Shown: positions 26,401 through 47,601 of the stretch, one piece after another
Layout of the letters: every line of letters begins with the position of its first letter
Numbering within the stretch: the stretch's first letter is position 1
Source: the human T2T-CHM13v2.0 reference genome, Homo sapiens
NCBI RefSeq assembly: GCF_009914755.1
Contig: NC_060932.1
Strand: one strand, 5' to 3'
DNA length: 64,000 nt
The notes under the pieces: model-generated
The model's input: only the letters and a program-made list of their open reading frames with translations
Databases searched by the model: none
Told to the model about the DNA's origin: nothing
Program-made: the position numbers and the translations under genes

Positions 26401-29400
26401 TGGGAGGCCTTCAGCTTCCCCCTCGGCCTGGCTGCTTCATTTCCGTGGCTGCTTCAAAGTCCCCTTTCAAGCCTAACTTGCTGTCCCTTTTCTCCCGTGG
26501 CCTTCTTGCCACTTTGGGGTTCCCTTCGTGTGCGAGACACACACCCTGGATGCAAGGCAGGGACTCCACGACCACCCCGGGCCCAGCATAGGGGCTGCTG
26601 GGAACGCCTGGGCCTCCGTGTAAGGCCTTCAGGTTCTCCCATGGCCTGGCTGCTTTATTTCCTTGGCTGCCTCAACATCCCCTTTCAACCCTAATGTGCT
26701 GTCCCCTTTTCCCAGGGGCCTTCTTGAGAGTTTGTGGTGCCCCCCGGTGTGCGAGACACGCACCCTTGGTGCAAGCCAGAGACTCCATGATCACTCCAGA
26801 CCTGGCGCAGGGGCTGCCGAAAAGGCCTAAGCAACTGTGGGAGGCCTTCAGGGTCCCCCTCAGCCTGGCCGTTTCATTTCTCTGGCTGCCCCAATGTCTT
26901 GTTTCAAGCCTGAGGTGCTCTTCCCTTCCCCTGGGGACCTTCTTGCCACTTTGGGGTGCCCACTGTGTGCGAGCCACGCACCCTGGGTGCAAGACAGGGA
27001 CTCCCAACACCCTTCAGGGTGCGGTGCAGGGTCTGCCAGGAATGCCTGAGCCTCTATGGGATGCCTTCAGTGTCCCCTTCGAACTTGCCACATTTTTTCC
27101 CTGGCTGCCTCAACGTCCATTTTCAAGCCTGATGTGCTGTCCTTTTTCCCCGGGGGCCTTCTTGCCAGTTTGTGATGCCACCCCTCTGTGAGGCAGGAAC
27201 GCTTGGTACAAGCCAGGGACTCCACGACCCCATCAGGCTCACCAAAGGGGCTGCCGGGAAGGCCCGGACTTCTTCTGTTGCAGGCCTTCAGCATCCCTTT
27301 CGGCCTCAACGCTTTTTTTCCCTGGCTGCTTCAAGGTCCCCCTTAAAGCCTGACGTCCTTTCTCCTTCTCTTGGGGGCCTTCTTCCACTTTGGGGTGCCC
27401 CCCGTGTGTGAGACACGCACTGTGGATGGGGGCCAGGGATACCACGAACACCCGGGCTGATGCAGAGGCTGCCAGGAAGGCCCGGGAGTCCGTGGGAGGC
27501 CTTCAGCATCCCCCTCAGGCTGGCCACTTTATTTTCCTGGCAGCTTCAAGGTCTCATTTAAAGCCTGACATTCTGTTGCCTTCCCTTGGGGGCCTTCTTG
27601 CTGCTTTGGGATGCCCCTGTGTGTGAGACAAACAACCTGGGTGCAAGGGAGGGACTTTACGAATCCCCCGGGCCTGAAGCAGAGGTTACCAGGAAGGTCT
27701 GGGTGTCCGTGGGAGGCCTTCAGCCTCCCCCTCTGCCTGCCCACTTTATTTCCCTGGCTGCCTTGATGTCCACTTTCAAGTCTGACATGCTGTCCCTGTT
27801 CCCTGGTAGCCTTCTTTCTGCTTTGGGATGCCCCACTGTGTGCAAGACGTGCACTTTTGGTGCAAGGCAGAGACTCCACCATCCCCCCAGACTCCACTCA
27901 GAGGCTGCCAGGAAGGCCCAGGCCTCTGTAAGAGGGCTTCAGCGTCCCCCTTGGCCTGGCCGCTTTTTTTCTCTGGTTGACTCAATGCCCCCTTTCAAGC
28001 CTTATGCACTGTCCCCTTCCCCTGGTGGCCTTGCCTGTTTGGGGTCCCCTTCGTGTGCAAGACATGCACCACTGGTGCAAGCCACGGACTCCACGACCCT
28101 ATCAGACCAGGCTCAGGGGTTGCCAGGAAGGCCCTGGCCTCAGTGGGATGCCTTCAGCATCCCCCTCGGCCTGGTGGCTTTATTTCCCTGGCTGCGTCAA
28201 CATCCTGTTTCAAGCCTGATGTGCTGTCCTCTTCCCACAGGGGCTTTCTTGATGCTTTGGGGTGCCCCATGTGTGTGAGACACATACCCTTGCTGCAAGC
28301 CAGGGACAGCACAAACCCTCCGGGCCCAGCCCAGGGGCTGCCGGGAAGATCTGGGCCTCCGTGGGAGGCCTTCAGGGTCCCCTTTGGCCTCAGAACATTT
28401 TTTCCCTGGGTGCCTCATGGTACCCTTTAAAGCATGACGTCATGTCCCCTTCTTTTAGGGGCCTTCTTGCCACTTTGGGGTGACTCTGTGTGTGAGGCAC
28501 GCACCCTGAGTGCAAGCCAGGGACTCCATCAATGCCACGGGCCTGGCACAGAGGCTGTAGGAAAGGCCGGGGCCTCTGTGGGAGGCCTTCAGCGTCCACC
28601 TTGGGCTGGCTGCTTTATTTCCCTGGCTACCTCAATGTCCCCTTTCAAGCCTGATGTGTTGTCCCCTTCCTCTGGTGGCCTTCTTGCCAGTTTGCTATGT
28701 GCCACCTGAGTGAGACACACACCCTTGTGGCAAGCCAGGGGCTCCACGACCACCCCAGACCATGGGCAAGGGCTGCTGGGAAGGCCTAGGCCTTTGCGGG
28801 ATGAATTCTGCATCCCCCTTGTCCTGGCAGCTTTATTTCACTGGCTGCCTCAATGTCCCCTTTAAAGCTGGACATGCTGTCCCCTTCCCCTGCAGGACTT
28901 CTTGCCACTTTAGTGTACCCCCGTGGGTGAGACACGCATCCTGGGTGCAAGCCAGGGACTCCACGACCACTCCAGGCCTGGCGCAGGGGCTTCCGGGAAG
29001 GCCCAAGTCACTGCTGGGGGCCTTCGGTGTCCACCTGGGCCTGGCCACTCCTTTAACCTAGCTGTCTCAACCTCTCCTTTCAAGCCTGACATAATGTCCC
29101 CTTTCCCTGGGGGCCTTCTTGCCAGTTTGTGGTGCTCTCCGTGTAAGAGACAGGCACTCGTGGTGCAAACCAGGGATGCACCGACCCCCCTGACCCAGCA
29201 CAGGGGCTGCCGGGAAGGCTCGGGCTCCGTGGGACTACTTCAGCATCCCACTTGGCCTGGATGCTTTATTTTCCTGGCTGCCTCAAGGTCCCCTTTCAAC
29301 CCAGACGTCCTGTCTCCATCCCCCAGGGGCCTTCTTGCTGCTTTGGGGTGCCTCCCTTTAGTGAGACATGCACACTGGGTGCAAGCCATGGACTCCACGA

Positions 29401-30339
29401 CCCCTCCGGGCCCGGTGCAGGTGCTGCCTGGAAGGCCCAGGCCTCCGTAGGAGGCTTTCAGTGTCCCTTTTGGCCTGGCCGCTTTTTTTCCCTGGCTGCC
29501 TCAAGGCCTCCTTTAAAACCTGAAGTCCTCTCCTTTTCCCTTGGAGACCTTCTTGCCATTTTGGTATGCCCCTCCCCACCCCGTGTGTGAGACACGCACC
29601 CTGGGTGCAAGCCAGGGACTCCACGACCCCTCTGGGCCCTACGCAGAGGCTGTTGGGAAGGCCCGGGCATCAGTGGGAAGTCTTCAGGGTCCTGCTCGGC
29701 CTGGCCACTTTATTTCCCTGCCTGCCTCCCTGTCCGTTGTCAAGACTGATGTGCTGTCTCCTTTCCTCGGGGGCTTTCTTGCCACTTTGGGATGCCCCTG
29801 TGTGAGAGACATGCAGGCTTAGTGAAAGCGAGAGTCTCCATGACCCTCCTGGGCCTGGCGCAGGGGCTGCTGGGACGGCCCGGTCCTCAATAAGTGGGCT
29901 TCAACATCCCAGTTGGCATGGCTTTTTTCCTCTGGCTGACTCAACGTCCCCTTTCAAGCCTTATGTGCTGTTCCCTTCCCCTGGTGGCTTTGACAGTTTG
30001 TGGTGCCACCCCCTGTGTGCGAGGAAAGCACCCTTGGTGCAGGCCAGGGACTCCACGACCCTCCCGGGCCAGATGCAGGGGCTGCAGGGAAGCCCTGGGT
30101 CTCCGCATGAGGCCTTCAGCGTCCCCCTCGGCTTGGCCGCTTTTTTTACCTGGATGCCTCAACATCCCCTTTCCAGCCAGACGTACTGTCCCTTTCCCCT
30201 GGGAGCCTTCTTGCCACTTTGGGTTGGCAAGGAGACTTGCCCCCTGTGGGTGAGTCTCACACCCTCGGTACAAGCCAGAGACTCCATCATGCATTCAGCT
30301 TCCGCCCATTTTTATGTTAAAAGCAGGGCACTTTGCTTC

Positions 30340-31740
30340 TGCACATCAACGGAATCATTATCATACTCAGATCACTTGGACTGGGGTATGCAGTACTTCA
30401 GCATTGTCTCACCTTTCATATTACTAGAGAAGGCTTTCTCACCATGTTTTGTTCACAGTCTCCACCCGCCAGTTGCCCCTCATTGTTTCTGAGAGCCACA
30501 CATGGATGCCTCGGGAAGAAATTGTTCTGCCTTACAACCAAACCCTGCAGCAAATGTTGAATGCTTTCTATTAGGGTGGTTACCTTGTGCTCATGCACTC
30601 ACTGCCAACGTCCCTCCATTTACCCACCTTTCTCTCAAGGCCACAGTCCTCCCCAAGACCTACACACCAAGGTGGTAGGCATGAGCTTACCAAAGTCGCT
30701 CCTGCATCTTGTGCACACTTTGCAGAGTGGAGCATGGCACAGATGTGCACTCGACAGATGAGGTGGCATTTCTTACCATCTGGGATTGGCCTGCTTCACT
30801 CAAACGCCTCGCCCACCCAGCGACCTCTTCAGGACGTACTCACAAACACAGCGGTGGCGGCTGTAGGAGAGGGCAGTTGTCGTTGGCACAACACACCATC
30901 TTTTATTCTCAGGCACGTGAGGGACAATCTGGAGCACTGCTGGATCACCACAAAGGCCTCTGCGGTGCCAACACTCATGCATCCCAGAAAGGGCAGCATG
31001 GTGTTTTTTAAGGATAGTCCACCATGGCCACAGAGAGGTGCCATGGCCACCCCCAAGGCAACAACCACAGGAAGCCAGAACAGAGGTGCCTGCTCTGTCA
31101 GAGGACCCCACAAATTTCCTCAAAGCCACGAGGCACCAGGTGTGAGTGCAGTGAAGTCATGCCAAATTCCATGCCTCATGCCTCCCAACACACCACCCAC
31201 AAGCGGGGAGGAGAGACGAGGAGCCTCACGAGTAGAAAGAGAAGAACAGACCCATTCATCATGAATTTCCATCCCTTGCTGCTCGCTGCTTAGTACCCGC
31301 CCAGGAGAGCATGACATCATCACATCAATTGTGAAAAGCCCCATAGCGGGGCAGTGGTTGAGTCGGGGTCAGTCCTGGCTAAGCTGATGAGCATAACAGC
31401 CTAGCCAGCCTCACTCTGGGATAGGGACAGCAAACAATTCACAGAAGAGAATGTCTGACGTGCACAGCACAGAGCCAACAGGGGGTTGTTTTGGCTATCC
31501 CGCGCAGCTGCAGCATGGAGCACGTGGGTCAAGGGAGCCCACTCCGCTTTCCCCACCAGGGTGGAAGTTCCAGAGACCTGGGGCACCACCAACAGTTATA
31601 ACACTAGCATGCGTCAGAGCAGGCGCACAGGTCCCAACAGTCAGCTCAAGCTGGAGCAGTGCCTGTTAGCTGGGTTACCAGTATACCACAGCTTCACACC
31701 CATCTAAAGACCCACTCTAATAGCCGGACACCATGTTGAC
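30340..31740 (-). pseudogene. Partial 5' external transcribed spacer of 45S pre-rRNA (about the first 1.7 kb in human numbering), truncated at the gamma satellite
   Basis: Minus-strand matches to recalled human 5'ETS: GGGGCTTTTCACAATTGATGTGATGATGTCATGCTCTCCTGG (~31300-31342; A'/01 site region, human GGGGCTCTTCGTGATCGATGTGGTGACGTCGTGCTCTCCCGGG), GGGGTCCTCTGAC (~31098-31110), CGAGGCGTTTGAGTG (~30797-30811) and GGTGAGAAAGCCTTCTCTAG (~30424-30443; A0 site region). Confidence 0.88.
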
Positions 31741-31900
31741 AACAACCTGGTGGCCCAAAATGCCACCCCGGAGTGAAAGATATACCTCGCCTGGAGGCAG
31801 GTTGTCAAGTCACCGACCACGCCACTGGCCTATAAATGCGCGACCTGGACATCTGTTCCCAAAAATGCCATAATGGCAGTCAGACACGGAACACTCAGGG
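31722..31900 (-). promoter_or_regulatory. RNA polymerase I rDNA gene-promoter homologue (core plus upstream control element), +1 at ~31740
   Basis: Minus strand reads ...GGCATTTTTGGGAACAGATGTCC...GGCGTGGTCGGTGAC...GAGGTATATCTTTCACTCCGGGGTGGCATTTTGGGCCACCAGGTTGTT|GTCAACATGGTGTCC, versus recalled human GAGGTATATCTTTCGCTCCGAGTCGGCATTTTGGGCCGCCGGGTTATT|GCTGACACGCTGTCC. Confidence 0.92.
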
Positions 31901-31904
31901 CCCT

Positions 31905-31915
31905 CTGGTCGACCC
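31905..31915 (-). terminator. T0 promoter-proximal Sal box (TTF1 site), perfect GGGTCGACCAG
   Basis: ctggtcgaccc on the plus strand is GGGTCGACCAG on the minus strand, at about -165 to -175 from +1, the canonical T0 position. Confidence 0.9.
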
Positions 31916-32373
31916 CAGGACACAAGTCGGAGCAGCAGATGATGAGGGACTCCGTCCTGGCCACCCATGAAACACAGGGCCTGGCCTCTGTCTCCAGAGC
32001 AAGACTCAGAATCATTTTCAGCCAACCCCTCGCATGACCAGATCACACGAGGGACCAAAGCCTGGCCAGATGCCACCTCTGAAACCACATGCACATTCAG
32101 GGGCTGCTCTCCGACTCCGCATGGGGACTTGGAAAAAAAGATTAGAGCAGGGGGACTGGGGCCGGGCCAGGGGACTGCTCCTCAGTAACCAGAGGACAGT
32201 GCAGGATGGTCCCCAACTCCCCGCGGGGACCTGGAAAATAATTCGCCAGATGCCTTAGACTGCCAGGACCAGCATGGGCTTGCAACTGGGCTGGGATTGG
32301 CGTCCGTGGCCACCCACACCATGCCCAATAGGTCGCCATGGGTCTCGGCTTGGGCTTTGGGAGTTGCGGCACT

Positions 32374-32385
32374 CTGGTCGACCAG
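32374..32385 (-). terminator. Spacer-terminator-type Sal box (Tsp homologue)
   Basis: ctggtcgaccag (palindromic; TGGTCGACCAG is 10/11 to the Sal box), ~640 bp upstream of +1, in a context matching the recalled human GCCGGTCGACCAG region. Confidence 0.78.
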
Positions 32386-32559
32386 CCAGGGTAGCCCCAC
32401 ACTACCCTTGGGCATGGAGGCACGGCTACAGCCTCCCCACACAAAGCCCTGCATGCTCAAGCTCTGACTCCCAGATGGCGTTGCTAGAGCTCTGGCGAGA
32501 CTGGGACAGCCCCGTTGATGGCCACAGGCTTTCTGGAGCTATGCCTAAGTCACAGCAGG

Positions 32560-32700
32560 ATGGTTTTTTTCCCTTGGCAGCTGCCACTGGAGCTCCGGAA
32601 GCCAAGAGAACTATATAAAAGCAGCCGCCAGATGGAGCCAGACAGCCGTCGACAACCGTCGCGAACATCAGCAAAGCAGATCCGGATGGCGTGGCAGCCT
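32560..32700 (-). promoter_or_regulatory. rDNA spacer-promoter region homologue with CTCF motif
   Basis: Minus strand CGGCTGTCTGGCTCCATCTGGCGGCTGCTTTTATATAGTTCTCTTGGCTTCCGGAGCTCCAGTGGCAGCTGCC matches the recalled human IGS about 0.8-0.9 kb upstream of +1. CTCF-type motif gccgccagatggag at 32624-32637. Confidence 0.72.
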
Positions 32701-32974
32701 GTGACCGCAATACCCAAACCGTGAGTCGAAGTCTTCTTGAGGCCGAAAACGCAGCCCCTCCACGCCAACTTCACAGAAACCGTTCCCCAAAAGTGTCTCT
32801 GCATAGACTGCGACAGAATCAAAAGACAACCAATGGCGTGTGGGTGTTTGAAGATGCATCTCAGAAGGAGAAAGAAGAAACAGGACTTGGTCGTGGGTCG
32901 GTTAGGGCACAGGGAAAAACAGAGTAAGGAGAGTCTTCCAGAACCCAAACAAGTCTCCAGTCTTCCAGAATCCA

Positions 32975-33303
32975 ACAGAGGAAGGGAGGGAGAAAGGGAA
33001 TAGAGAAAAGGGACAGACCGAGGAAGGGAAGTAGGAAGGGAAGTGAGCAGCGAGGGAGGGAGGGAGTAAGGAAGTGGGAAAGAGAGACAGAATATTAAAA
33101 ATCTAGAGAAATAAATATAAAGAAAGAGAGAAAGAGACATAGAAAGGGAAGAAAGATGAAAGAGATAAAGAATAAGGAAAGAATTGAAGGAAAGCAGGGA
33201 GGAAAAAACAGAGCAAGGAAAGAAAAAAGAAAAAGAAAAAAGGACAGAAAGAAAGGAAGAAAGAAAGAGACAGAAATAAAAAAGAAGAGAAAAGAACAAA
33301 GAA
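32975..33303 (+). repeat. Polypurine (GA-rich) low-complexity tract typical of rDNA IGS
   Basis: ~330 bp almost entirely G/A (CT-rich on the rDNA sense strand). Confidence 0.9.
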
Positions 33304-33585
33304 GGCAGGGCATGGTGACTCACATGTATAATCCCAACACTTTGCAGGGTTATGTAGGAGAATCACCTGAGCCCAGCTCTGGCAACATAGCGAGACTCTG
33401 TCTCTACTTAAAGAAAAAAAGAAAAGAAAAAAAAGTTGGCAGGACGCGATGACATGTAGTCACAGCTCCTCAAGAGGCTGAGATAAGAGCTTCTCTTGGA
33501 CTCGGGAGGTCAAGGCTGCCATGAGCCATGGTCAGGCCAATGCACTGCAGCCCGGGTGACAGAGCGAGACTCCACCTCAAAAACT
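33304..33585 (+). mobile_element. Old Alu (AluJ-like)
   Basis: Dimeric Alu with J-type motifs (caacatagcgagac, ggaggtcaaggctgc); highly diverged. Confidence 0.82.
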
Positions 33586-33684
33586 TGAACAAATGAAGGC
33601 TGTGAGTCCCGCAAGAAAAAGATATAAAGGAAACAAAGAAGGAAGTTGAGTTCTGAAAGGAAAACTATTTTTAAAAGAAACAAT

Positions 33685-33975
33685 GGCCAGGCCCGGTGGC
33701 TCTCGACTGTAATCCCAGCAATGTGGGAGACCAAGGCAAGCGGATCACCAGGTCAGGTGTTCAAGACCAGCCTGACATATATGGTAAAACCGTGTCTCTA
33801 ATAAAAATACAAAAATTAGCTGGGAGTGGTGGTGTGTGCCTGTAGTCCCAGCTAACCTGGGGGGTGCGAGGCAGAAGAATCACTTGAACCCAGGAGGCGG
33901 AGGTTGCTGTGAGTCAAGATTGTGCAACCGCACTCCAGCCTGGGTGACAGGGTGAGACTCCATCTCAAAAAAAAG
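33685..33975 (+). mobile_element. AluS-family element, tail continuing as a GA-rich tract to ~34260
   Basis: ggccaggcccggtggctc ... aaaaatacaaaaattagc ... gagactccatctcaaaa. Confidence 0.9.
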
Positions 33976-34954
33976 AGAAAAAGGAAAAAGAAGGGGGAAG
34001 AGAGAAATATGGAAAGAGATACTAAAAAAACAGAAAGAAAGGGAAAGAAAGGGAAAATAAAAAAAAGAAAGAAGAAAAAGAAAGAAAGACAGAAGAAAGA
34101 AAGAAAAAGAAAGAAAGAAGGAAAAAGAAGGAAGGAAGGAGAAAGAAAGAAAGAGAAAGAGAGACAAAGACAGAGTCAGAACTGGAGAAAGATATTAGGA
34201 AGACAGAAATGAAAGGAGAAAGATAGAAAGATTAAAAAAAAGAAAAAGAAAACAAAACTCTAAAAGGATAGTAAGGCCCAGGGAGGGGCTATGGTGCACT
34301 TTCCACTTTACCAACATGCGGGCCAGGGAAAGAAAAATATTAAACATAATACATAACGGTAAAAAGTGACTATGGCGGCCCAGCCAGGGTGGTTGAGTTT
34401 CCCTAGGGAGGGAGGGAGAGAGGAAGAGGGAAGTTGCTCGAGTTGAAGGAGAGAATCCGTGGCTAGGGGGAGGGGACAGAAAGAGGAGGGGAAAGGGACA
34501 GAGGCACAGTAGTATACACTGGAATGTTTTTTAGCCTGGGGTGGGTGGGGGGACACGAAGGGCAATTCAGGAAATAAGCTGACTCCAGAAATGACACTTA
34601 ATTCATAGTGCTGCCATCGCTGCCTTGAAAGGTGTGCAGTGCATGTTTGTTCCTCCACACTCATTCGGTTATTTCTAGGAAATGCCATTTAGTCCCACAT
34701 GCTTGAAATCCACCTGCTTTAACAACATCTGGGGAGAATCAGAAAAGTCCCCACTAACGAAAAGGCCTAGAGTTGAGCTGCCATCTGTAAAACCCAGGCA
34801 GAAGAGTCCACGCGGGTCAAACACATGAAGAAAGAAAAGGAACCAACTGAAGAAAAAAAAAAATCACCAACATGGCCCAGCCGGAATCTCCAGAAGTTTT
34901 CTGCTCAATGAGGGAGTGGGGGAACGGATGGATGGAGGTAGGGCGAACCTCCGA

Positions 34955-34982
34955 GGGTGGGGGCGGGGGCGGGGGTGGGGGG
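34955..34982 (+). other. G-quadruplex-forming / GC-box tract
   Basis: gggtgggggcgggggcgggggtgggggg: five runs of 3 or more G with 1-nt loops. Confidence 0.75.
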
Positions 34983-35293
34983 AGCGGAAAGAAGCCACAC
35001 TTGCTCCTGACCATGGGCAGGCAGCCAGAGCATCCTGTGCACCGCCTAGATTTCAAAACCAGTGACGGCTAGAAGACGCCCAATGACAACAGATGGAAGG
35101 GTCAGCCTGGCACCCTCCCAGAAGCTCCCAGCAACTAATTGACCAGAACTCTGCAGGGGAAGAAGCACTGTGACGGGAAAACATGGAGAAACACACGCAC
35201 CTAAGCACGTACGCATGCATGCACCATATCCCACATATAGATGAGTTTATACCGTGACAGTGAGAGAGCCCACCTCTAGAAACGAAAGAAGGA

Positions 35294-35600
35294 GGCTGGG
35301 CGCCGCAGCCCACGCCTGTCACCCCAGCACTTTGGGAGGCCGAGGCAGGCAGATCACCTGAGGTCAGGAGTTCCAAACCAGCTTGGTCAACATGGTGAAA
35401 CCCTGTCTTTAAGAAAAATACAAAAATTAGCTGGGCTTGGTGCTGGGCTCCTGTAATCCCAGTTCTTTGGGAGGAAGAGGCACTAGAATCACTTGAACTC
35501 CAAAGGTGGAAGTTGCAGTGAGCCGAGATCTCACCACTGCACTCCAGCCTGGGCAACAGAAAAAGACTCCATCTAAAAAAAAAAGAAAAGAAAAGAAAAG
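35294..35600 (+). mobile_element. AluSx/Sq-like element
   Basis: Full dimer containing gatcacctgaggtcaggagtt, with an A-rich tail. Confidence 0.9.
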
Positions 35601-35602
35601 TC

Positions 35603-35817
35603 AATCGCTTCTGTCTTTAGATGAATGCACTCACGCATAGACAGATAGCTTTAAGCTTTGTAAACTTTTGTAATTTTGAGTCGGTCTGGCGATATTTCCA
35701 AGCCTTCTCCCCGTAAGTGGTCACAGAAATGAAAACTCCCTCCTTTTTTAGTTCATTTGCATCTCATTATCAGGCCACGAGAATAAGCAGCCCACCCTCT
35801 GTTTGGTCCGGGAACAA
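35603..35817 (+). mobile_element. 3' fragment of a MER4-group (ERV1) LTR
   Basis: Ends gagaataagcagcccaccctctgtttggtccgggaaca, resembling the recalled MER4 LTR 3' terminus. Confidence 0.62.
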
Positions 35818-35820
35818 ATA

Positions 35821-36110
35821 CACTCCAGCCAGGAGACATAGGGAGAGCTTGTCTCAGAAAAGAAACAAGAAAACAATAAAAAAAAAGAAGGAAAATAATT
35901 AGCCTGGCATTGTGCTGTGTTGCGGGTCGCGCCCGTGACTATAGACCCAGCAACTCGGGAGACTGATGTAGAGGAGAATCAATTTAAGCCCAGCAGTTCA
36001 AGGTCGCAGTGAGCTATGATCTTACCTCTGCACTCCAGCCTAGGCAACACAGGGACACCCCATCTCTAAAATATACATGAAAGAATGAATAAATGAATGC
36101 AAATAAAATG
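35821..36110 (+). mobile_element. Diverged AluJ-like element (partial)
   Basis: aattagcctggc ... gttcaaggtcgcagtgagctatgatc ... ctgcactccagcctaggcaacacag, then an A-rich tail. Confidence 0.75.
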
Positions 36111-36537
36111 CAAGGAGGTGGAAGAGCATGGGAAGGCTCTACTCTTTCCTAAAGACCAGAGCAGAAAAACAGGACCATCCATTTGAGACATAGGCGATTC
36201 CAAATCACAGTGGAGGCTGTGAGGATTTTGGAGCAAGGCCTTGCCGTTATCTGCAGATTACCAGCTTTCTTTCGAGCGACAGAGCTCTCTCAGCTAGCCT
36301 CTGGCTGTTAGTAGAAACCAAATGCCCAATCGTGGGGCCTGGAAGTTACCATGTGAGCTGAGCCACTCCTCACACACATAAGTGGGTGTGCACGGCAGCA
36401 CTCTAGTGTGACATGGAAGTGCAGTGGACCTGATCAAGTCCGAACAGATCCTGAAGCACAAGTAAGTTCCAGGAGAAAGAAGCCCAAATGCCCATGGTCC
36501 CCAGTCAAGAAATGAGCTGACTTAAGAAATTACACAT

Positions 36538-36940
36538 AGCTGGGCACAGTGCCTCACGCCTATAATTTCAGCACTTTGGTAGGCTGAGACGGGTGGATCA
36601 CTTGGGGTCAGGAGTTCGAGACCAGCCCAGCAACCACAGTGAAACCCTGCCTCTATGAAAAATACAAAAATTAGCCAAGGGTGGTGGAATGTGCCAATAG
36701 TCCCAGCTACTCAGAGGTTGAGGAAGGAAAATCGCTTGAACCTGGGTGGTGTAGGTTGCAGTAAGCGACGAGCAGTGTGCTCCAGCCTGGGTAACACTTC
36801 AAAACTCTGTCTCAAAACAAACAAAAATTACAGTAAATTAAAAAAAAAGAAAGTACACGTAAAAATTACACATAGCTGGGCACAGTGGCTTACATCTGTA
36901 ATCTCAGCACTTTGGGAGGCTGAGAAGGGTGAGTCACTTT
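36538..36940 (+). mobile_element. AluS element (36538-~36850) followed by a ~65-bp Alu 5' fragment
   Basis: Both Alu starts are preceded by the same flank: aaattacacata|gctgggcacagtg. Confidence 0.82.
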
Positions 36941-37056
36941 GTGGTATCATTGCCATTACTGCCTCCACTACTGCCTTGAAAGGACAGAGGCATATGTTTA
37001 TGTCACTTTGTGTTTTTTTTTCTTTTTTCCTGGAAACTCACTTATATATTTATTCA

Positions 37057-37690
<634 letters not shown>

Positions 37691-38461
37691 TATTTATTTT
37701 TTTTAACTGATCAAAGAACCATCAGACCCAGTCATCAGGGTGGCAATTCCCTGGGCAACAAGGGAAGGAGGAACTTGGAGGTGTGGGAGGGGGTTGGGCA
37801 CGGTGCAGAAGACATAGTTGCCCTGGGCTGTGCACAGGTGCCATGAGCTTTCTTCCTCCTTGAGGCCTCAGGTTTCAGAGTAACAGTGGCCTCTTAGTGA
37901 CGCCTGACATATGCCAATGAGACTGTCAGCCAGGAATGAATTGGGATCACCCAGAGGGGGAGAGGGCAGGGGAAGGATGGAGGCCCCCACAGCACAGTGG
38001 GTCGCTGCACCCTCCCAGGTGGTTCCCACAACTAATCGACCAGGGCCCCTGGAAGACACAGCCTAAGTCCTCACCCATTTGTCATCTGGAAATTCCATCC
38101 AGAGACCGACTGAAAATTCTCTCAGTCAAGGTCCAAACCTAAAAGAATCAATGACACACCCAACAGGACTAAGACAACTTTTAAAAGAATCATTTCTGTG
38201 TTTTGGGTGCATCTGTGTATTTATTTCTGTACAACAAAATTATTTATTTTAAACTTTACAATTTTTTTACTTCTTACATGTATAGTCCCATGATAGACAG
38301 ACCAGAAGACTCGTCAGCTCAGAGTCCATGAGGCCAGAAGCTGACATCCTCAATTTCTATTTAGAATAAATTTAAACAAGCCAGCCAAACACCCTGCCAT
38401 AAAATTCCTGGAAGGACTAGTGATTAAAAAAAGGAAAAAACAAAAACAAAAACAAAACAAT

Positions 38462-38600
38462 GCTGTCAGGAGCAGTGGCTCACACCTGTCATCCCTGTAC
38501 TTTGGGAGCCTGAGGGCAGCATTGATCCCAGGCAATTGAGACCAGCCTTGGCAACATGGTGAAACCTCATCTCTAGAAAATTACAAAAATTAGCTGGTTT
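38462..38600 (+). mobile_element. Alu left-arm/FLAM-like monomer
   Basis: gcagtggctcacacctgtcatccc ... ggcaacatggtgaaacc ... aaaaattagctgg, then the similarity stops. Confidence 0.72.
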
Positions 38601-38749
38601 CATAATCTGGACTCAAAATTAATAAATAGATTGAAATTTAGAATTTTAAAAAAGTCTTAAATTCTGTATTCTGTTTTTTTTTTTTTTTTTTGCTTCCTAC
38701 CCTGAGTTGGACATAAATATATCTGTTGTCTGTCTGTCTGTCCATCTGT

Positions 38750-39003
38750 TTGTGACAGGGTCTCACTCCATCTGCCACCTAGGCTTGAGTGCAGTGCTAC
38801 CATCACGGCTCACTGCAGCCTCAATCACCCCAGGGTTAGGTGATTCTCCCACTTCAGCCTTCTGAGTAGCTGTGACCACAGGCAAGCACCTCAGGCTTTG
38901 GCTCTGTTGTCCAAAGCTGGTTTGAGCTCCCGGGCTCAAGCGATCCTACTGCCTCGGCCTCCCAAAGTGTTGGGTTTGCCAGCGTGAGCCACCACACCTG
39001 GCC
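38750..39003 (-). mobile_element. AluJ-like element
   Basis: gacagggtctcactc ... ggctcactgcagcctc ... ctcccgggctcaagcgatcct ... gtgagccaccacacctggcc. Confidence 0.82.
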
Positions 39004-39574
39004 TGACTTAATACATCTAGTCGCACTACATCCTAACCACATGTCTTTGAAGAACTCGATTCAAGAGAGAGTCAGCAAGAGAGGTTCAGCATTCTATCCC
39101 TAAAGCAGTGAGGTTGGTGATGGCAGAGTTTTCCGTGCTTCTGTGGTTTTAGGTGTCCAAGCATAGAGGATAGATTTCAAATGTTTCCGGAGAGGTGCGA
39201 GCCACAGTCATTCATGGCATCTGAGTTCGGGTTGGGGTTTCTGACAGTGCCTTAAGGGCCAGGATCTGCTAAGGCCCGTGTTCTAGGGTGGGGACGTTGG
39301 AATCCAAGGTAGAGGGAGCAATCAGTCCACACTGAGCTCCTGCCCTAGGCCCCACCATGCAGACCAAATCAGAAGGAACAGTCCCTTGTCCTCATGCCAC
39401 ATCCATCCACTGAACTTGAGATCGGATTTGTTTTCCAAACATGAGGTGACTCTTGGTTTGAAATGTATGACAAGGGGCCTGGCTTTCCTGAGTTGGCAGG
39501 ATAAAGAAGTCATTCTGTGGCATAGAATGAGATGTGCCTTGAATCTAAAATCTCCAGTTAAAACCAATGATGGT

Positions 39575-40360
<786 letters not shown>

Positions 40361-40879
40361 ATGAATGTATATAAAAAGAAAAATGCAAGGAAATAGCGGA
40401 GCACGAGAAGGCTCCACTCATTACAAAAGACCAGAGCAGAAAAATAGGGTCATCAGGTTGAGACACAGGCCATTTTGAATCTGTTGTCACCATGCCCAGG
40501 TTTCTGTGCCTCCCGTCTGTCATCACCGATCTCGTCAAGTACAATTGCTGGGTCATGACTACACAGAGATCTTTCAGTCTACCAAATGTGTCCGTACTTT
40601 CACTAGCCTGGTTGGGAGAATAAAAAGCACATTTAGCAAAGTACTCATTGTACGTTCATTGGTCTCCCATGTCTCTCATGAAACCAATCAAATTCATAGT
40701 CTGTTTTTTTTTTCCAGCCCTCAACTGTCCACAATATACCAAAATAAACGAACAGTGAATACATTTTTTGCAACAAGGAGGAAAAACAACAAAGCAAAAG
40801 TCTCAGAGGCTTGTGATACACAGGGGGATACAGAATGAGGAGACTCTTCCAGAATCCACACAAAGACAGACAGATGGAG

Positions 40880-41125
40880 GGATGGCAGGAAACAGATTGA
40901 GAAAATAGAGTAAAAACGATCAAGAAAAATAAATGTAAAGAAAAAAAGACAAAGATGTAAAGGGAAGAAAGATGAAAAAGAAAATAGAAAGACAGAGAAA
41001 CAAAGAAAAAGAATGACAAATGAGAGAAAGAAGGGAGGAAGAAAGAGAGAAGAAAGAAAAAGAAAGAAAGAAAAGGAAAGAAAGAAAGAGAAAGAAAAAA
41101 GAAAAATGAAGGAAATAAAAAAGAG
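40880..41125 (+). repeat. Polypurine (GA-rich) IGS tract
   Basis: G/A low-complexity sequence. Confidence 0.88.
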
Positions 41126-42040
41126 GGCAGTGCATCATGGCTTACGCCTATAATCCCAACACTTTAGGAGGCTGAGATGGAAGAATCACTTGAGTCCAGC
41201 AGTTTGAGACCAGCCCTGGCAACACAGTGAGGCCACGTCACTACTTAAAAAAAAATTAAAAAGTTAGCCAGGTGTGATGGCAGGTGCCTGTAGTTTCAGC
41301 TCCTTTGGAGCCTGAGGTGGGAGCATCACTTGGGCTCGGGTGGTGGAGGCTGTGGTGGGCCTTGGTCAGGCAAATGCACTGCACCTGTTGCCCAGGCTGG
41401 TCTCGAACTCATGGGCTCTAACGAACTGCCTGCTTCAGCCTCTGAACTTGCACCTGCCATGTCCAACGGCCTTGGGGGTATCAGTGACACATTTTAGTAG
41501 ACACGGTGTTATGCCTCATTGCCCAGGTTGGTCTCGAACTTGAACCCGGGAATTTGAGGCTACAGGGAGCCAAGGTCATGCCATTTAATGGCAGTCTGGG
41601 TGATAGAGCAAGACTCCATCTCTAAATAACTAGATAAATAGCAAAAACAATAACAATAATCACAATAATACAAAGAAATAATAAACAACAGCAATAGCAA
41701 TATACAAACTAGTGGAAGTGAAAAATATAAAAATATAAAAGGTAATTTAGATCACAATTAATTGTAATTTCAAGGAGTTATTTCTTTAACCTGTCTCTCT
41801 TACTTTCTGAAACAGGATCTTTCTCTGTTACTCAGGCTGGAGGGCAATGGCGTGATCACAGCTCACTGCAGCTTCGACATCCCAGAATCAAGCGATTCCT
41901 GCAGTCTCAGCCACTTAGAAGGCTGAGATGGCAAGATCACCTGAGGGAGCCCAGGAATGTCAAGGTTGTGGTGAGCCGAGATTGCATTCTCACACTCCAA
42001 CCTGTCTCAAAAAAGAAAAGAAAAGAAAAGAAAAAAGTAA
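41126..42040. mobile_element. Cluster of AluJ-like elements and fragments in both orientations
   Basis: AluJ on + at ~41126-41385, scrambled pieces at ~41385-41625, minus-strand fragment at ~41810-41910, plus-strand fragment at ~41915-42040. Confidence 0.72.
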
Positions 42041-42273
42041 ATGTAAAACAACAGCAACTTCAGTGTGTAGAAAGAGAAGTAAGAAAAGTAAAAGAAAAAA
42101 GAAACAAAATGAAAAGCAACTGAAAGTACTGTGGAAACAATTGGAGAGGAAGAAACGGCTTACTGAAATAGCGACATCTAATGGATGCAGCTGGTAGTGC
42201 TGCCTACCAATGTCAACTGTTCTACCTTAGAAATCCCAATTTGATGGTCAAGTCCAACGCTCACCGCAGACAT

Positions 42274-42407
42274 CTGGCTGACCAGGCGCTCGCGGATGGA
42301 AGCGTTCAGACCCAGTTGGAAACTTTTCACACCGAGCCGGCCCACTTTTGCAGCCATCTAACTCCACCGACCTGCCCGCCGTTCCCCCACTGTCCACTGG
42401 TTGACCG
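42274..42407 (-). terminator. Degenerate Pol I terminator Sal boxes (T1-like at 42397-42407; second at 42274-42284)
   Basis: Minus strand CCTTTCCTCCTCTCTCCGCCC-CGGTCAACCAG (9/11 to GGGTCGACCAG, preceded by the expected pyrimidine tract) and TGGTCAGCCAG (8/11), just downstream of the 3'ETS. Confidence 0.7.
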
Positions 42408-42930
42408 GGGCGGAGAGAGGAGGAAAGGCACAAGGGCAGTGAGTGGCTCATATCCCATCCCCGTGCACCTGGGAGGGGGAGAGGGGCTGTGACCCCAACG
42501 GCCAGTACCGGGCATGAGTGAACACTACTCGAACAGGGACTGCAGGGGTACACCCCCCCGACACCCACGCCTCAGCCATTCTCACCAGGCTCAAGGAATC
42601 CGATCCCAGCCCCAGTGGGGTGTGGGGAGGAGGCGGAATCAGAGAGGCAGAACGACGAGCAGGGGCGCCACCTCTACCTCAGCAACCCCCGGCGCGGCAC
42701 TTTGCAAAGCCCATGGGTGGGGACGGGCACCTCCCAAATGTACAGTGGGCACCGATAGGCTCTCGCTAGAGACACCAACTGCGTGCCCCGGGGATCCGGG
42801 GCGGGTGGGCGGGCATGAGTGGGCCAGGGAACGAGGTCCCCGGGGGCAACAGGAGGGAGGAAGGAAGGTAGAAGTCAAGCACTGAATTACACAGGACACG
42901 CCACATCACCAGGTCCCCCCCACACGAGTG
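42408..42930 (-). pseudogene. 3' external transcribed spacer homologue
   Basis: GC-rich, directly follows the 28S 3' end, and contains TTCCGCCTCCTCCCC (recalled human TTCCCGCCTCCTCCCC). Confidence 0.75.
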
Positions 42931-43459
42931 GAGAGACCCCTGTTTGGAGGTCTGACTTTCAATAGATCACAGCGAGGGAGTTGCTCTGCTCCATAGAAAA
43001 CCCTAATCCAGAAGCAGGGTGTCTACAAATAGTTTAGCATCAGATTCCCCACAAACCTGTTATGTGATGGGTCAGGGGATGACCGCATTTCTGGCAGCAG
43101 CCCATTTCCCAGGACGGGGGGCTCTCTGCACCGGACCTCAGTTCCCGCCGCGCGTTGGGACATGCCCCACATTGGGCAGGGCAGACCGCCAGCAGGGACA
43201 GCAGAGGACCGGCTATCCGAGGCCAACCAAGGCCCCACAGCCCTGCCATATCCTTCCGTGGGATTCTGACTTAGGGGCGTTGGGTCATAATCCCACAGAT
43301 AGTGGCTTTACCCCATTGGCTCCTCAACCAAGCACACACACCAAATGTCTGAACCTGTGGTTCCTCTTGTACTGAGCAGATTACCGTGGTAGCATCACAT
43401 GGGCAAAACACATGGGGAACACACACAGTAAAACTAACCTGTCTCACATGGGTCTAACC
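42931..43459 (-). pseudogene. 28S rRNA pseudogene fragment (3'-terminal ~530 nt)
   Basis: Minus strand GTGAGACAGGTTAGTTTTAC ... CTCAGTACAAGAGGAACCACAGGTTCAGACATTTGGTG ... GAGGAGCCAATGGGG ... CTGTGGGATTATGAC ... CTAAGTCAGAATCCC ... TTGGCCTCGGATAGCCGGTCC ... CTCCCTCGCTGTGATCTATTGAAAGTCAG. The sarcin-ricin loop is mutated. Confidence 0.96.
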
Positions 43460-43542
43460 ATGATGCTTTCCAGGGCATGCGCACCACTTTTGGGTGAATC
43501 CATTTCAGTTTGCCTTGCCCTTCACAAAGAAAAGAGAACTCT

Positions 43543-44130
<588 letters not shown>

Positions 44131-44249
44131 TATGTGTTTGTTTTTTAAATCTATCTTCCTACGGTCATAAGAATTCTCATTAATTTTGCTTAAAGCTCCT
44201 GGAGAGAAAAGCCTTTATTATTGTCATTGTAAGAGTAGAAAAAGTAGAG

Positions 44250-44545
44250 TTCTTTTTTTTTTTTTTCTTTTGAGACACAATTTCGCTCTTTTTGCCAGGC
44301 TGGAGTGCAATGGCCCATTCAGCTCACTGCAACCTCCACCTCCCAGGTTCAAGCAATTCTTCTGGCTCAGCCTCCCAAGTAGCTCAGATTACAGACATGC
44401 GCCACCACTCCTGGATAAGTTTATATTTTTATTAGAGTTGGGGTTTCACCATGTTGGTAAGGCTGGTCTCAAACTCTGACCTCAGGTGATTCACCTGCCT
44501 TGGCGTCTCAAAGTGCTGGGATCACAGGCATTAGCTGCTGTGTCC

Positions 44546-44576
<31 letters not shown>

Positions 44577-45200: not shown

Positions 45201-45587
45201 ACCAAGAACTCCTTAAATGCACATAGTGTCACAAAAGTGGCTCATGCAGGGAAATTTGTGGTGGATTTGGGGAAAATTAGGGCAAATTTTAAACATGTGA
45301 CCTTTTATCAGATCACCTACATTTCTTGGATTCTATGTGGGTTTGTCGCAGATGCTTAATGTGACAAATTACACAGCTTCTATCACTTCATTTGATCAGC
45401 CTCCTGTTGACTTTTAGCCAAGTCCTGCAGGGCTGCTTCTCAGATTTTATCTTTCTGCAAGACAAAGATGTTTTCACAGTCTCTCTCTAACTTCCCCCTT
45501 TTGTGGCTATTAATTTATACTTATATGTTTTTCAACTCCTTATTTTTGTTTTCTCTTTATGAAAGCTTTAACCTGTGTGAATTTTGT

Positions 45588-46863: not shown

Positions 46864-46876
46864 AGCTGTTATTATT

Positions 46877-47160: not shown

Positions 47161-47166
47161 ATTTTA

Positions 47167-47300: not shown

Positions 47301-47304
47301 AAAA

Positions 47305-47590: not shown

Positions 47591-47601
47591 TTGTTTTTTT
47601 T

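What the first reader, a model, noticed from the sequence alone, without database searches (positions are those of the whole stretch)
30340..43459. End-to-end fossil rDNA intergenic spacer (28S end to next 5'ETS), only ~10.7 kb, trapped between gamma and alpha satellite
Seen: on the minus strand, 28S 3' end (43459-42931), 3'ETS, Sal boxes (~42400), spacer, spacer-promoter/CTCF region (~32600), Tsp (32374), T0 (31905), Pol I +1 (31740) and 5'ETS occur in native order. Terminator to +1 is ~10.7 kb. Known: the modern human IGS is ~30 kb, and non-transcribed spacer cannot come from retroposed rRNA. Inference: this is a DNA-level copy of a unit-to-unit junction that escaped concerted evolution. It may be a snapshot of an ancestral, more compact primate rDNA spacer, or a relic of an NOR beside an extinct centromere. 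Alternatives are post-duplication Alu-mediated deletions, or a copy of an array-edge/distal-junction-type mosaic.
Basis: partly seen in the sequence, partly recalled or inferred. Interest (0 to 1): 0.8.

Follow-up and report, generated by a model that had tools for sequence, protein, structure and literature searches.

The report
Decayed rDNA array-edge copy near centromere 8
This is a real but long-dead piece of ribosomal DNA, one of several old copies scattered near centromeres, and it looks copied from the ragged outer edge of a ribosomal gene array rather than preserving a short ancestral spacer.

Summary
They are the 28S 3' end, a weak 3'ETS, one decayed Sal box, the upstream terminators Tsp and T0, the Pol I promoter with +1 at 31740, and about 1.3 kb of 5'ETS.

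The segment is not a unique snapshot of a working unit-to-unit junction. The same block, with the same roughly 11-kb spacing and the same junction to gamma satellite, occurs at 77-85% identity on chr12q. Partial copies lie on chr12p, chr21q and twice on chrY.

Its 28S part carries a 1.83-kb internal deletion and starts at an Alu. The same deletion junction and the same Alu are found in a degenerate rDNA remnant 2.4-6.3 kb distal to the rDNA array on chr13. Near-identical copies of that remnant (checked over a 1.3-kb block) lie on chr14, 15, 21 and 22. There, the 28S end lies 9.2 kb from the first +1, against 34 kb inside the array.

The fossil holds the exact empty site of the IGS cdc27 retro-pseudogene, so it left the array before that insertion (published as present in apes, absent in monkeys).

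Best reading: an ancient DNA-level copy of the distal array edge, joined to a 2p22-derived module and spread among pericentromeres. Interest is low to moderate.

The parts
43858..47600 (-). Flank module homologous to an interstitial 2p22 locus (chr2:38702661-38706906), including three Alus. It belongs to the duplicated block but is not rDNA.
   Evidence: 84-85% identity to chr2, and the homology stops at 43858; the same module is present at the chr12p, chr12q, chr21q and chrY copies.
43543..43839 (-). Alu that bounds the rDNA-derived part. It is shared with the acrocentric distal-junction edge (chr13:5764223-5764526).
   Evidence: homology to chr13 begins at window 43848 = chr13:5764221 and runs through this Alu into the 28S piece.
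43456..43542 (-). 28S fragment from the middle of the gene (canonical offset about 21825-21915).
   Evidence: 79.5% identity to the canonical unit. The same fragment sits at the same place in the distal-junction edge.
42931..43460 (-). Last ~530 nt of 28S, fused to the previous piece at GGTT|AGACC (a 1.83-kb internal deletion).
   Evidence: Rfam 84.5 bits and 76.7% identity to canonical; the junction is identical in chr8 and chr13:5764612-5764669.
42397..42930 (-). Decayed 3'ETS ending in one Sal-box-like terminator (GGTCAACCAG at 42406-42397).
   Evidence: local alignment to canonical 3'ETS plus T1 has z = 4.4 against 100 shuffles. The motif aligns to the first canonical GGGTCGACCAG.
40372..42396 (-). 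Unassigned proximal spacer. It is found only in the paralogous copies and at the distal-junction edge, not in the modern spacer. It contains Alu fragments and a CT-rich tract.
   Evidence: blastn and nhmmer against the canonical unit return low-complexity hits only. (query 41950-42930): 18 long matches fall at 12 loci (chr8 itself, 12q, 12p, Y x2, 21q, chr15:14.81 Mb and 5 DJ edges). Four further matches are short ~100-130-bp hits elsewhere (chr19 x3, chr6). None is a canonical unit.
40063..40342 (-). Alu 'A', shared with the distal-junction edge (chr13:5767890-5768149). Colinearity with that edge breaks just after it, and about 16 kb of modern spacer is missing here.
37700..40017 (-). Distal-spacer blocks colinear with the modern spacer from about -15 kb to -4.7 kb. 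They include the exact empty site of the cdc27 retro-pseudogene at 39518-39503.
   Evidence: 76-89% identity blocks. Pfam ANAPC3 and TPR hits identify the insert in the canonical unit. It is flanked there by a 16-bp target-site duplication that is present once in the fossil.
37086..37684 (-). Two tandem Alus in the same orientation and position as the canonical pair (offsets 6746-7437), so probably orthologous.
   Evidence: Orthology is inferred from position and strand only.
34923..37045 (-). About 2.1 kb absent from the modern spacer at this position, with later Alu insertions. An 80-bp marker (37045-36966) occurs only in the paralogues and the distal-junction edges.
   Evidence: 13 of 13 candidates are chr8 itself, 12p, 21q, 12q, chr15:14.81 Mb, Y x2, chr19:30.37 Mb and 5 DJ edges.
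31741..34922 (-). Promoter-proximal spacer. It holds a block matching canonical -3.6 kb, CT-rich tracts, Alus, the CTCF-like motif (32639-32625), Tsp (32383-32374), T0 (31915-31905), the pRNA region (31876-31788), UCE and core.
30412..31740 (-). 5'ETS from +1 (31740) to about +1.44 kb, heavily CpG-depleted.
   Evidence: CpG o/e 0.32 against 1.0.
14490..30223 (.). GC-rich 217-221-bp tandem repeats (gamma-satellite type) abutting the truncated 5'ETS. The junction is shared by the chr12q and chr21q copies.
   Evidence: TRF; alignments run through the junction to window ~28612-28631. The name 'gamma satellite' rests on recall and on PMC8099727 passages.

Best explanation
Window 43848-30412 (minus strand) is a non-functional, ancient DNA-level copy of the distal edge of an acrocentric rDNA array. 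At that edge the outermost, already broken unit (a 5'-truncated 28S with an internal deletion, 3'ETS, one terminator and a short rearranged spacer) ran into the promoter and 5'ETS of the first array unit.

That stretch was duplicated out of the short arm. It became joined on one side to a 2p22-derived segment and on the other to gamma satellite. The composite block was then copied among pericentromeric regions (chr8, 12p, 12q, 21q) and to chrY.

Since then it has decayed by CpG loss, Alu insertions and indels. The short 'spacer' reflects the rearranged array edge, plus the absence of elements added to the working spacer later (the cdc27 retro-pseudogene and a CT block). It does not reflect a short ancestral working spacer.

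Shown: the homologies, the shared deletion junction, the shared flanks and the empty site. Inferred: the direction of transfer (edge to pericentromere), a single founding event, and the age (older than the ape ancestor, roughly 20-50 My).
For: 1. Shared derived rearrangement. In chr8 and in chr13:5764527-5765141, a 28S piece (canonical offset ~21825-21915) is fused at the same GGTT|AGACC point to the last ~530 nt of 28S, and both begin right after the same Alu. Rfam independently calls the chr13 piece LSU rRNA at 84.8 bits.

2. Colinearity with the edge. Window 43848-40090 matches chr13:5764221-5768149 at 77-78%. Further colinear anchors are 37045-36457 = 5768552-5768710, 34922-34706 = 5770781-5770997, and 33290-30796 = 5772748-5775279.

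3. Position and conservation of the remnant. On chr13 it ends 2.4 kb distal of the array boundary, which I located at chr13:5770549, 3.86 kb upstream of +1. This agrees with the published '~4 kb upstream' breakpoint (PMC6942050, passage). Copies on chr14, 15, 21 and 22 are near-identical over the 1.3-kb 28S/3'ETS block aligned (K 0.000-0.005).

4. Spacing. 28S end to +1 is 9.16 kb at the chr13 edge, 11.19 kb in the fossil and 33.95 kb inside the array.

5. A multi-copy block with shared junctions.
- chr12q:38085331-38102806 is colinear with window 45577-28631.
- chr21q is colinear except for a deletion of 42206-39450.
- chr12p is colinear from 47600 to 35523.
- chrY carries two inverted copies, seen as matches. 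Only the promoter part was fetched.
- pRNA matches occur in 3 of the 3 fetched paralogue promoter loci.

6. In 28S, at 363 non-CpG sites compared, 22 are derived in all five sequences (four paralogues plus DJ). Three are derived in the four paralogues only, 11-12 are private to each paralogue, and 26 are private to the DJ copy. This means decay before the split, then a short stem, then dispersal.

7. The cdc27 empty site, together with the published distribution of that pseudogene (apes yes, monkeys no; PMC6281188 passage).

8. No 18S, 5.8S or second unit in the window. CpG o/e is 0.32-0.47.
Against: The fossil is not a plain copy of today's edge.
- The fossil's 40017-37700 (modern-spacer-like, -15 to -4.7 kb) is absent from the present DJ edge.
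- The DJ edge carries other spacer-like pieces (matches to canonical offsets 43926-44260, 32519-33132 and 37601-37732) that the fossil lacks.
- So at least one or two further rearrangements must be assumed, and their mechanism is unknown. The Alus at the breakpoints are mutually inverted.

Non-CpG distances are uneven. Paralogue to DJ edge is 0.21-0.22, whereas paralogue to canonical distal spacer is 0.11-0.16. This fits one event only if the DJ lineage evolves about 1.8 times faster. The 28S counts suggest that (26 against about 14.5), but it is not independently shown.

Some of the 22 'shared derived' 28S sites could be changes on the canonical lineage, because no outgroup was available.

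The direction of transfer is inferred from parsimony only. No other primate genome could be examined here.
Confidence: 0.68

Rival explanations
1. Two-source mosaic. The 28S-end/3'ETS/unassigned part (43848-40063) came from the distal-junction edge. The distal spacer, promoter and 5'ETS part (40017-30412) came separately from an ordinary array unit. The two were joined in native order at the Alu at 40342-40063, either in the pericentromere or by a deletion.
For: Colinearity with the DJ edge breaks right after that Alu. Distances to the two putative sources differ: 0.21-0.22 against 0.11-0.16 non-CpG. Pericentromeric blocks are typically mosaics, and a 2p22 module is already joined at 43858.
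Against: An 80-bp marker found only in DJ edges and the paralogues lies downstream of the supposedly separate module (37045-36966; 13 of 13 candidates). Orientation and order are native throughout. The overall span matches the edge architecture (9.2 against 11.2 kb). Rate differences can explain the distances.
Confidence: 0.17
2. One reading: a copy of an internal unit-to-unit junction that preserves a compact (~10.7 kb) ancestral primate spacer.
For: The landmarks are in native order. Some of the modern spacer's extra length is demonstrably later growth: the 3.8-kb cdc27 insert and a 1.3-kb CT block inside a 3.9-kb stretch absent from the fossil.
Against: The 28S is 5'-truncated and internally deleted, and that state is shared with the DJ edge, so the source was not a working unit. 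Marmoset, orangutan and gorilla units are about 40-42 kb (PMC6281188 legends). Large units are reported as ancestral to mammals (PMC11373518 abstract). The fossil carries dimeric Alus, so it is of primate age.
Confidence: 0.03
3. Relic of a former NOR that sat beside an old chromosome 8 centromere and decayed in place.
For: The window lies among q-arm gamma-satellite tracts. The chromosome 8 paper proposes that a ~70-kb q-arm segment with divergent monomeric alpha satellite, nestled between gamma-satellite clusters, is a remnant of the ancestral centromere (PMC8099727 passages). Degraded rDNA units near active and vestigial centromeres are documented (PMC5381670).
Against: There is only one partial unit, with no 18S or 5.8S in 64 kb. 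The same block with the same junctions to the 2p22 module and to gamma satellite recurs on chr12q and chr21q, and partly on 12p and Y. That pattern points to duplication of a composite block rather than local decay.
Confidence: 0.04
4. Reverse direction. The block arose in a pericentromere, and a copy was later inserted next to the acrocentric arrays and homogenised across the five chromosomes.
For: The DJ copies are nearly identical to each other (K 0-0.005), so they say nothing about their own age. A DJ-like extra copy exists at chr15:14.81 Mb.
Against: At the acrocentrics the remnant lies in array orientation, directly distal to the array and among other spacer-like debris, such as a canonical-43160-like piece at chr13:5762675-5762780. 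That is what a decaying terminal unit should look like. Insertion by chance in that place and orientation is less parsimonious.
Confidence: 0.05

Closest known systems
Degraded rDNA units and fragments near centromeres of non-NOR chromosomes, and pseudogenic units at array ends (Robicheau et al. 2017, PMC5381670; I read the abstract, section 21 and passages)
   Same: The sequence is rDNA-derived and includes non-transcribed spacer. It is centromere-proximal, lies on a chromosome without an array, and has decayed beyond function. The paper also argues that array edges escape homogenisation.
   Different: That paper describes near full-length ~43-kb units on HSA20 and HSA2 and only slightly diverged first units at the DJ and PJ. 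Word searches of its main text for HSA8, HSA12, HSAY, 'gamma' and 'segmental duplication' gave 0 hits each. The present block is a partial unit with an ~11-kb 28S-to-promoter distance. It ties to a much older deleted-28S remnant inside the DJ. Its supplements were not opened.
Acrocentric distal junction (DJ) next to the rDNA array (Floutsakou et al. 2013, PMC3847771; van Sluis et al. 2019, PMC6942050; passages only)
   Same: The fossil shares an Alu, a 28S deletion junction and about 3.7 kb of colinear sequence with the last 6.3 kb of the DJ. The array boundary I found (3.86 kb upstream of +1) matches the published ~4 kb.
   Different: The chr8 copy is not next to an array and is 21-22% (non-CpG K) diverged from the DJ copy. 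Its interior differs, with extra distal-spacer blocks. '28S' and 'IGS' occur 0 times in the main texts of both papers, so the remnant itself is not described there. Supplements were not seen.
Pericentromeric mosaic duplications (the two-step model of donor segments joined at an acceptor site and then copied between pericentromeres; recalled, and She et al. 2004 as cited in PMC3847771)
   Same: Modules from different origins (2p22, the acrocentric array edge, gamma satellite) are joined. The composite is present at several pericentromeres with the same junctions.
   Different: Identity between copies is only 77-85%, below the usual 90% threshold for annotated segmental duplications. These are much older than most catalogued ones. 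Two copies are on Yq rather than pericentromeric.

Membership tests
DNA-level rDNA pseudogene or fossil | Significant homology to 28S rRNA | tested here: met
   Rfam LSU_rRNA_eukarya 84.5-91.7 bits, above the gathering score of 50. 76.7% identity over 506 columns to the canonical unit.
DNA-level rDNA pseudogene or fossil | Homology to the Pol I promoter region and 5'ETS | tested here: met
   Rfam pRNA 57.1 bits against a gathering score of 34. A 2.5-kb alignment at 67-68%, with UCE, core, T0 and Tsp in register.
DNA-level rDNA pseudogene or fossil | Contains non-transcribed spacer, so it is not a retrocopy of rRNA | tested here: met
   Blocks colinear with the modern spacer at canonical offsets 43172-43315, 279-346, 4150-4673, 5868-6569 and 7649-7865.
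   A 1.83-kb internal 28S deletion and a 5' truncation at an Alu, both shared with the DJ edge.
   Against the human unit, about 16 kb is missing at one junction and about 2.4 kb has no counterpart. Other primates' units could not be fetched.
Copy of the acrocentric distal array edge | Shared derived rearrangements with the DJ-edge remnant | tested here: met
   The same 28S deletion junction and the same bounding Alu. An 80-bp marker is restricted to DJ edges and the paralogues, 13 of 13 candidates.
Copy of the acrocentric distal array edge | Colinear over the whole length with the present-day edge | tested here: not met
   The two are colinear at the ends and at anchors, but the interior differs in both directions. 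Later rearrangement must be assumed.
Copy of the acrocentric distal array edge | Direction of transfer from acrocentric to pericentromere | not testable with these tools
   This needs presence/absence data in other primate assemblies, and none is held here.
Pericentromeric mosaic segmental duplication | Several paralogous copies sharing internal junctions between modules of different origin | tested here: met
   chr12q and chr21q share the 2p22-module, rDNA and gamma-satellite junctions. chr12p shares the first.
Pericentromeric mosaic segmental duplication | At least 90% identity over at least 1 kb (the usual annotation threshold; recalled) | tested here: not met
   77-85% identity between copies.
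Relic NOR | Remains of 18S or 5.8S, or of more than one unit, nearby | tested here: not met
   Only two Rfam matches at gathering threshold in the 64-kb window, a 28S piece and pRNA. Sequence beyond the window was not scanned.

The most novel reading that the evidence does not exclude
The paralogue family is a datable snapshot of the distal edge of an rDNA array from before the ape radiation.

It would show three things:
- The last ~8 kb of the distal junction is a graveyard of decayed terminal units.
- The edge of homogenisation has since moved, from at least -15 kb to -3.9 kb relative to +1.
- The array edge, rather than the array interior, seeded rDNA-like DNA into several pericentromeres and the Y.

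The copies would then serve as internal outgroups for reconstructing how the human spacer grew (the cdc27 insert, the CT blocks) and how NOR flanks evolve.
Probability: 0.4. Interest if true: 0.5.

Novelty: new member of a known kind. Interest (0 to 1): 0.3.

Why it matters
It replaces an attractive but unsupported idea, a compact ancestral spacer or a lost NOR on chromosome 8, with an ordinary one: an old composite duplication.

Two small points may be useful to people working on NOR evolution. First, the DNA just distal to all five human arrays contains a much older, internally deleted 28S/3'ETS remnant. The main texts of the two DJ papers I searched do not mention it. Second, pericentromeric and Y copies of that edge preserve a pre-cdc27 state of the promoter-proximal spacer.

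Together these give a way to polarise changes in the spacer and at the array boundary without leaving the human genome. They also identify the array edge as a plausible source of centromere-proximal rDNA debris.

Tried and rejected
1. Clean Alu-Alu deletion as the cause of the short spacer. The 16-kb gap abuts the Alu at 40342-40063. That Alu is inverted relative to the Alu pair at 37684-37086 and to the canonical Alu next to offset 43172. I dropped the claim.

2. Sensitive search of the 2.9 kb after the 28S end against the modern spacer. blastn with short words gave mainly CT-rich low-complexity noise. With dust and best-hit filtering nothing remained. nhmmer on tiles gave 4 low-complexity hits only. 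Only the 3'ETS/T1 stretch aligns weakly (z 4.4 for chr8 and 3.8 for the DJ copy, against 100 shuffles each).

3. Finding the cdc27 parent gene by genome search with the canonical insert. All 39 scored matches were rDNA units, which was uninformative. I identified the insert by Pfam instead: 2 of 5 ORFs hit ANAPC3 or TPR.

Two smaller gap-filling requests were granted. The chrY copies were therefore examined only through search hits and one 4.9-kb locus. The chr19:30.37 Mb, chr15:14.81 Mb and chr1:162.8 Mb matches were not fetched.

6. Absolute dating from K2P distances was abandoned as a firm number. Block-to-block rates differ up to about threefold, and the chromosome 8 paper reports an acceleration of more than 2.2-fold extending into centromere flanks (PMC8099727 passages).

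7. Literature searches turned up no listed paper whose title or abstract describes this chr8 block or the DJ deleted-28S remnant. This covers only the open-access library. Gonzalez and Sylvester 1997 on the distal flank was not available to read.

Full report
**What is there**

The window is chr8:46376001-46440000 of the T2T assembly, on the q side of the centromere.

Tandem Repeats Finder shows 171/172-bp alpha satellite at 1-13130 and 47663-64000. It shows GC-rich 217-221-bp repeats of gamma-satellite type at 14490-30223.

Between them, on the minus strand, Rfam at gathering threshold reports exactly two matches in the whole window. One is a eukaryotic LSU rRNA fragment and the other is pRNA, the RNA that overlaps the Pol I promoter. 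With laxer filters the LSU match covers 42934-43397, model positions 3006-3399 of 3401, 84.5 bits. The other 45 of the 47 matches at E <= 1 in 29500-45500 were all below their families' gathering scores. They are mostly SRP-like and mir-1268/mir-3135 hits, which I take to be Alu-derived.

**Checking the landmarks against a working unit**

I took a canonical unit from the same genome (chr13:5810001-5860000). Unit length there is 46,970 bp, +1 is at offset 11273 and the 28S end is at about offset 24290.

The fossil's promoter region aligns base for base well enough to place the landmarks:
- +1 at window 31740
- T0 at 31915-31905
- the Tsp core at 32383-32374
- a conserved block with a CTCF-like motif at 32639-32625 (the CTCF label is recall)

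The 5'ETS continues to about +1.44 kb, at window 30412. The first Sal box after 28S survives as GGTCAACCAG at 42406-42397.

CpG o/e is 0.32-0.47 in the fossil against about 1.0 in the working unit. This is what long-silenced, methylated DNA looks like.

**What the spacer is made of**

After Alu masking and best-hit filtering, nine blocks remain. Together they give about 4.9 kb of alignment columns to the canonical unit:
- two 28S pieces
- five blocks colinear with the last ~15 kb of the modern spacer (canonical offsets 43172-43315, 279-346, 4150-4673, 4867-4934 and 5868-6569)
- one block at offsets 7649-7865
- the promoter/5'ETS block

About 3.4 kb is Alu-like.

The 2.4 kb after the Sal box (42396-40372) matches nothing in the modern spacer by blastn or nhmmer. 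About 16 kb of modern spacer is missing at one point, next to the Alu at 40342-40063.

Part of the modern spacer's extra length is demonstrably later growth. The canonical stretch at offsets 347-4149 is a processed cdc27 pseudogene on the minus strand. Pfam gives ANAPC3 and TPR hits in 2 of 5 ORFs tested. It has a poly-T end and a 16-bp target-site duplication. The fossil carries that 16-mer once, with both flanks continuous, which is an exact empty site at 39518-39503. A further 3.9 kb of the canonical unit (offsets 43361-47249) is represented in the fossil only by an Alu. It includes a 1.3-kb CT array.

**The fossil is not unique**

A search of the whole genome found the same block elsewhere:
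- chr12:38085331-38102806 is colinear with window 45577-28631. That is the whole rDNA-derived part plus both neighbours, at 82-84% in the spacer and about 73% through the 5'ETS into gamma satellite.
- chr21:12430676-12416897 is likewise colinear but lacks the equivalent of 42206-39450.
- chr12:34102812-34089612 matches window 47600-35523 at 84-85% and then runs straight into gamma-type repeats.
- Two inverted chrY copies match the flank, the 3'ETS block and the promoter part.

Rfam finds pRNA in the chr21q, chr12q and chrY promoter loci (3 of 3) and LSU rRNA in the chr12q copy. The chr12p locus did not reach threshold, and the chr21 28S part was split between two loci.

The promoter part is 77-80% identical between paralogues but only 68-69% identical to working units. 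The ~11-kb arrangement therefore predates the spread of these copies.

**The link to the array edge**

Every acrocentric gave one extra hit that does not sit at a canonical 28S position. On chr13 it is 5764221-5768149. I located the array boundary at 5770549, where near-identity to the canonical unit begins 3.86 kb upstream of +1. This agrees with the published ~4 kb (PMC6942050, passage).

The remnant begins with an Alu and is followed by a 28S piece from the middle of the gene. That piece is fused at GGTT|AGACC to the last ~530 nt of 28S. The chr8 fossil has the same Alu, the same two pieces and the same fusion point. Rfam calls the chr13 piece LSU rRNA at 84.8 bits.

Homology then continues for about 3 kb, through the decayed Sal box (GGGTCAACCAG at chr13:5765678) to a second shared Alu.

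Further colinear anchors follow:
- An 80-bp marker at window 37045-36966 hit 13 of 13 candidates. They are chr8 itself, 12p, 21q, 12q, Y x2, chr19:30.37 Mb, chr15:14.81 Mb and five DJ edges. None is a working unit.
- The -3.6 kb block.
- The promoter/5'ETS.

The 981-bp query just after 28S gave 22 matches from 23 scored candidates. Eighteen long matches fall at 12 loci: chr8 itself, 12q, 12p, Y x2, 21q, chr15:14.81 Mb and five DJ edges. Four are short ~100-130-bp hits elsewhere (chr19 x3, chr6). None is a working unit. The tool skips very common words, so absence from the ~200-copy array rests mainly on the direct comparisons.

At the chr13 edge the 28S end lies 9.16 kb from the first +1. The figure is 11.19 kb in the fossil and 33.95 kb inside the array.

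**Order of events**

On 363 non-CpG 28S sites, 22 are derived in all four paralogues and the DJ copy. Three are derived in the four paralogues only, 11-12 are private to each paralogue, and 26 are private to the DJ copy. Read plainly, the broken unit decayed for some time, then the founder split from the DJ copy, and dispersal followed soon after.

Non-CpG K2P distances in the 28S/3'ETS block are 0.085-0.133 among paralogues, 0.21-0.22 to the DJ copies and 0.000-0.003 among the five DJ copies. Distances to the working unit vary by block, from 0.11-0.16 in the distal spacer to 0.28-0.32 in the 5'ETS.

The rates are clearly uneven, and the chromosome 8 paper reports an acceleration of more than 2.2-fold reaching into centromere flanks (PMC8099727, passages). 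I therefore give no firm age from distances.

The cdc27 empty site gives a cleaner bound. That pseudogene is reported in apes but not monkeys (PMC6281188, passage). So the fossil's spacer left the homogenising array before the ape ancestor fixed the insert. My rough range of 20-50 My is inference.

**Neighbours**

Window 47600-43858 matches chr2:38706906-38702661 at 84-85%. The homology stops at 43858, a few bases from the Alu that opens the rDNA-derived part. The same module accompanies the block on chr12p, 12q, 21q and Y.

The block is thus a composite of a 2p22-derived piece, the array-edge piece and gamma satellite, copied as a whole. This is the familiar pericentromeric mosaic pattern, though at 77-85% identity it is older than annotated segmental duplications.

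**What does not fit**

The fossil is not a plain copy of today's edge.
- It has 2.3 kb of modern-spacer-like blocks (40017-37700) that the DJ edge lacks.
- The DJ edge has other spacer-like pieces the fossil lacks.
- The Alus at these breakpoints are mutually inverted, so simple Alu-Alu recombination does not explain the difference.

A two-source mosaic remains possible, and I give it about 17%. Direction of transfer is inferred only. No other primate genome could be consulted.

A compact ancestral working spacer is contradicted by three things:
- the broken 28S shared with the DJ edge
- published unit sizes of about 40-42 kb in marmoset, orangutan and gorilla (PMC6281188, figure legends)
- the report that large units are ancestral to mammals (PMC11373518, abstract)

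A local NOR relic is contradicted by the absence of 18S, 5.8S or a second unit in the window. It is also contradicted by the recurrence of the same composite block on other chromosomes.

The chromosome 8 paper proposes that a ~70-kb q-arm segment among the gamma-satellite clusters is a remnant of the ancestral centromere. It does not mention rDNA: 'rDNA' and 'ribosomal' occur 0 times in its main text. That context makes the relic idea tempting, but the paralogy argues against it.

**Prior art**

Robicheau et al. 2017 (PMC5381670; abstract, section 21 and passages read) established that degraded rDNA, including spacer, lies near centromeres of non-NOR chromosomes and that array ends are pseudogenic. 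This finding is another member of that kind.

I did not find two things in the texts I could search. One is the deleted-28S remnant inside the DJ: '28S' occurs 0 times in the main texts of PMC3847771 and PMC6942050. The other is its tie to the pericentromeric and Y copies. Supplements of these papers were not opened, and the 1997 paper on the distal flank was not available.

Noticed in passing
L028-L030 (chr13:5762675-5770548): The last ~8 kb of the distal junction looks like a graveyard of rDNA pieces. In order, it holds a piece like canonical spacer offset 43160-43265, then Alus, the deleted 28S, 3'ETS and Sal box, ~2.5 kb unassigned, and then pieces like offsets 43926-44260, 32519-33132 and 37601-37732. 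The array then starts inside an Alu at 5770549.
   Followed up: partly
chr12:34088800-34089612 (L001), equivalent to window 35523: The chr12p copy loses the promoter-proximal 5 kb and runs straight into gamma-type repeats. Gamma satellite therefore flanks the block in both the chr12p copy and the chr8 copy, but at different internal positions.
   Followed up: no
chr15:14807376-14810939; chr19:30371639-30371825; chr1:162807470-162807562: Further partial matches to fossil-specific markers. The chr15 one resembles the DJ version, with the same 14-bp spacing of the two marker pieces and 77-81% identity. The chr19 one lacks the Alu that splits the marker on chr8. None was fetched.
   Followed up: no
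chrY 18473759-18491443 and 19227600-19245279: Two copies of the composite block in inverted orientation about 0.75 Mb apart on the Y long arm. They have identical scores in every search, which suggests arms of a large inverted repeat.
   Followed up: no
window 36440-36535: The second half of this stretch (query positions 30-95) hits dozens of dispersed loci at 84-88%. It is therefore an unidentified interspersed repeat rather than block-specific sequence.
   Followed up: no
window 17000-18000 and 22000-24000: GC content dips to 0.44-0.50 inside the gamma-type array, and TRF arrays break there. This suggests insertions or a change of repeat type.
   Followed up: no
window 2991-5515: The alpha-satellite array is interrupted between 2621 and 5304. 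AT skew there is strongly negative (-0.23 to -0.32), and NCBI masks the region as repeats. It is probably a retroelement insertion (and the hub annotation).
   Followed up: no
promoter blocks, window 33000-30420: In the promoter and 5'ETS blocks the chr8 copy is the outlier among paralogues. Non-CpG K is 0.16-0.21 to the chr12q, chr21q and Y copies, against 0.08-0.10 among those three. So chr8 either branched early or evolves faster in its centromere flank.
   Followed up: partly
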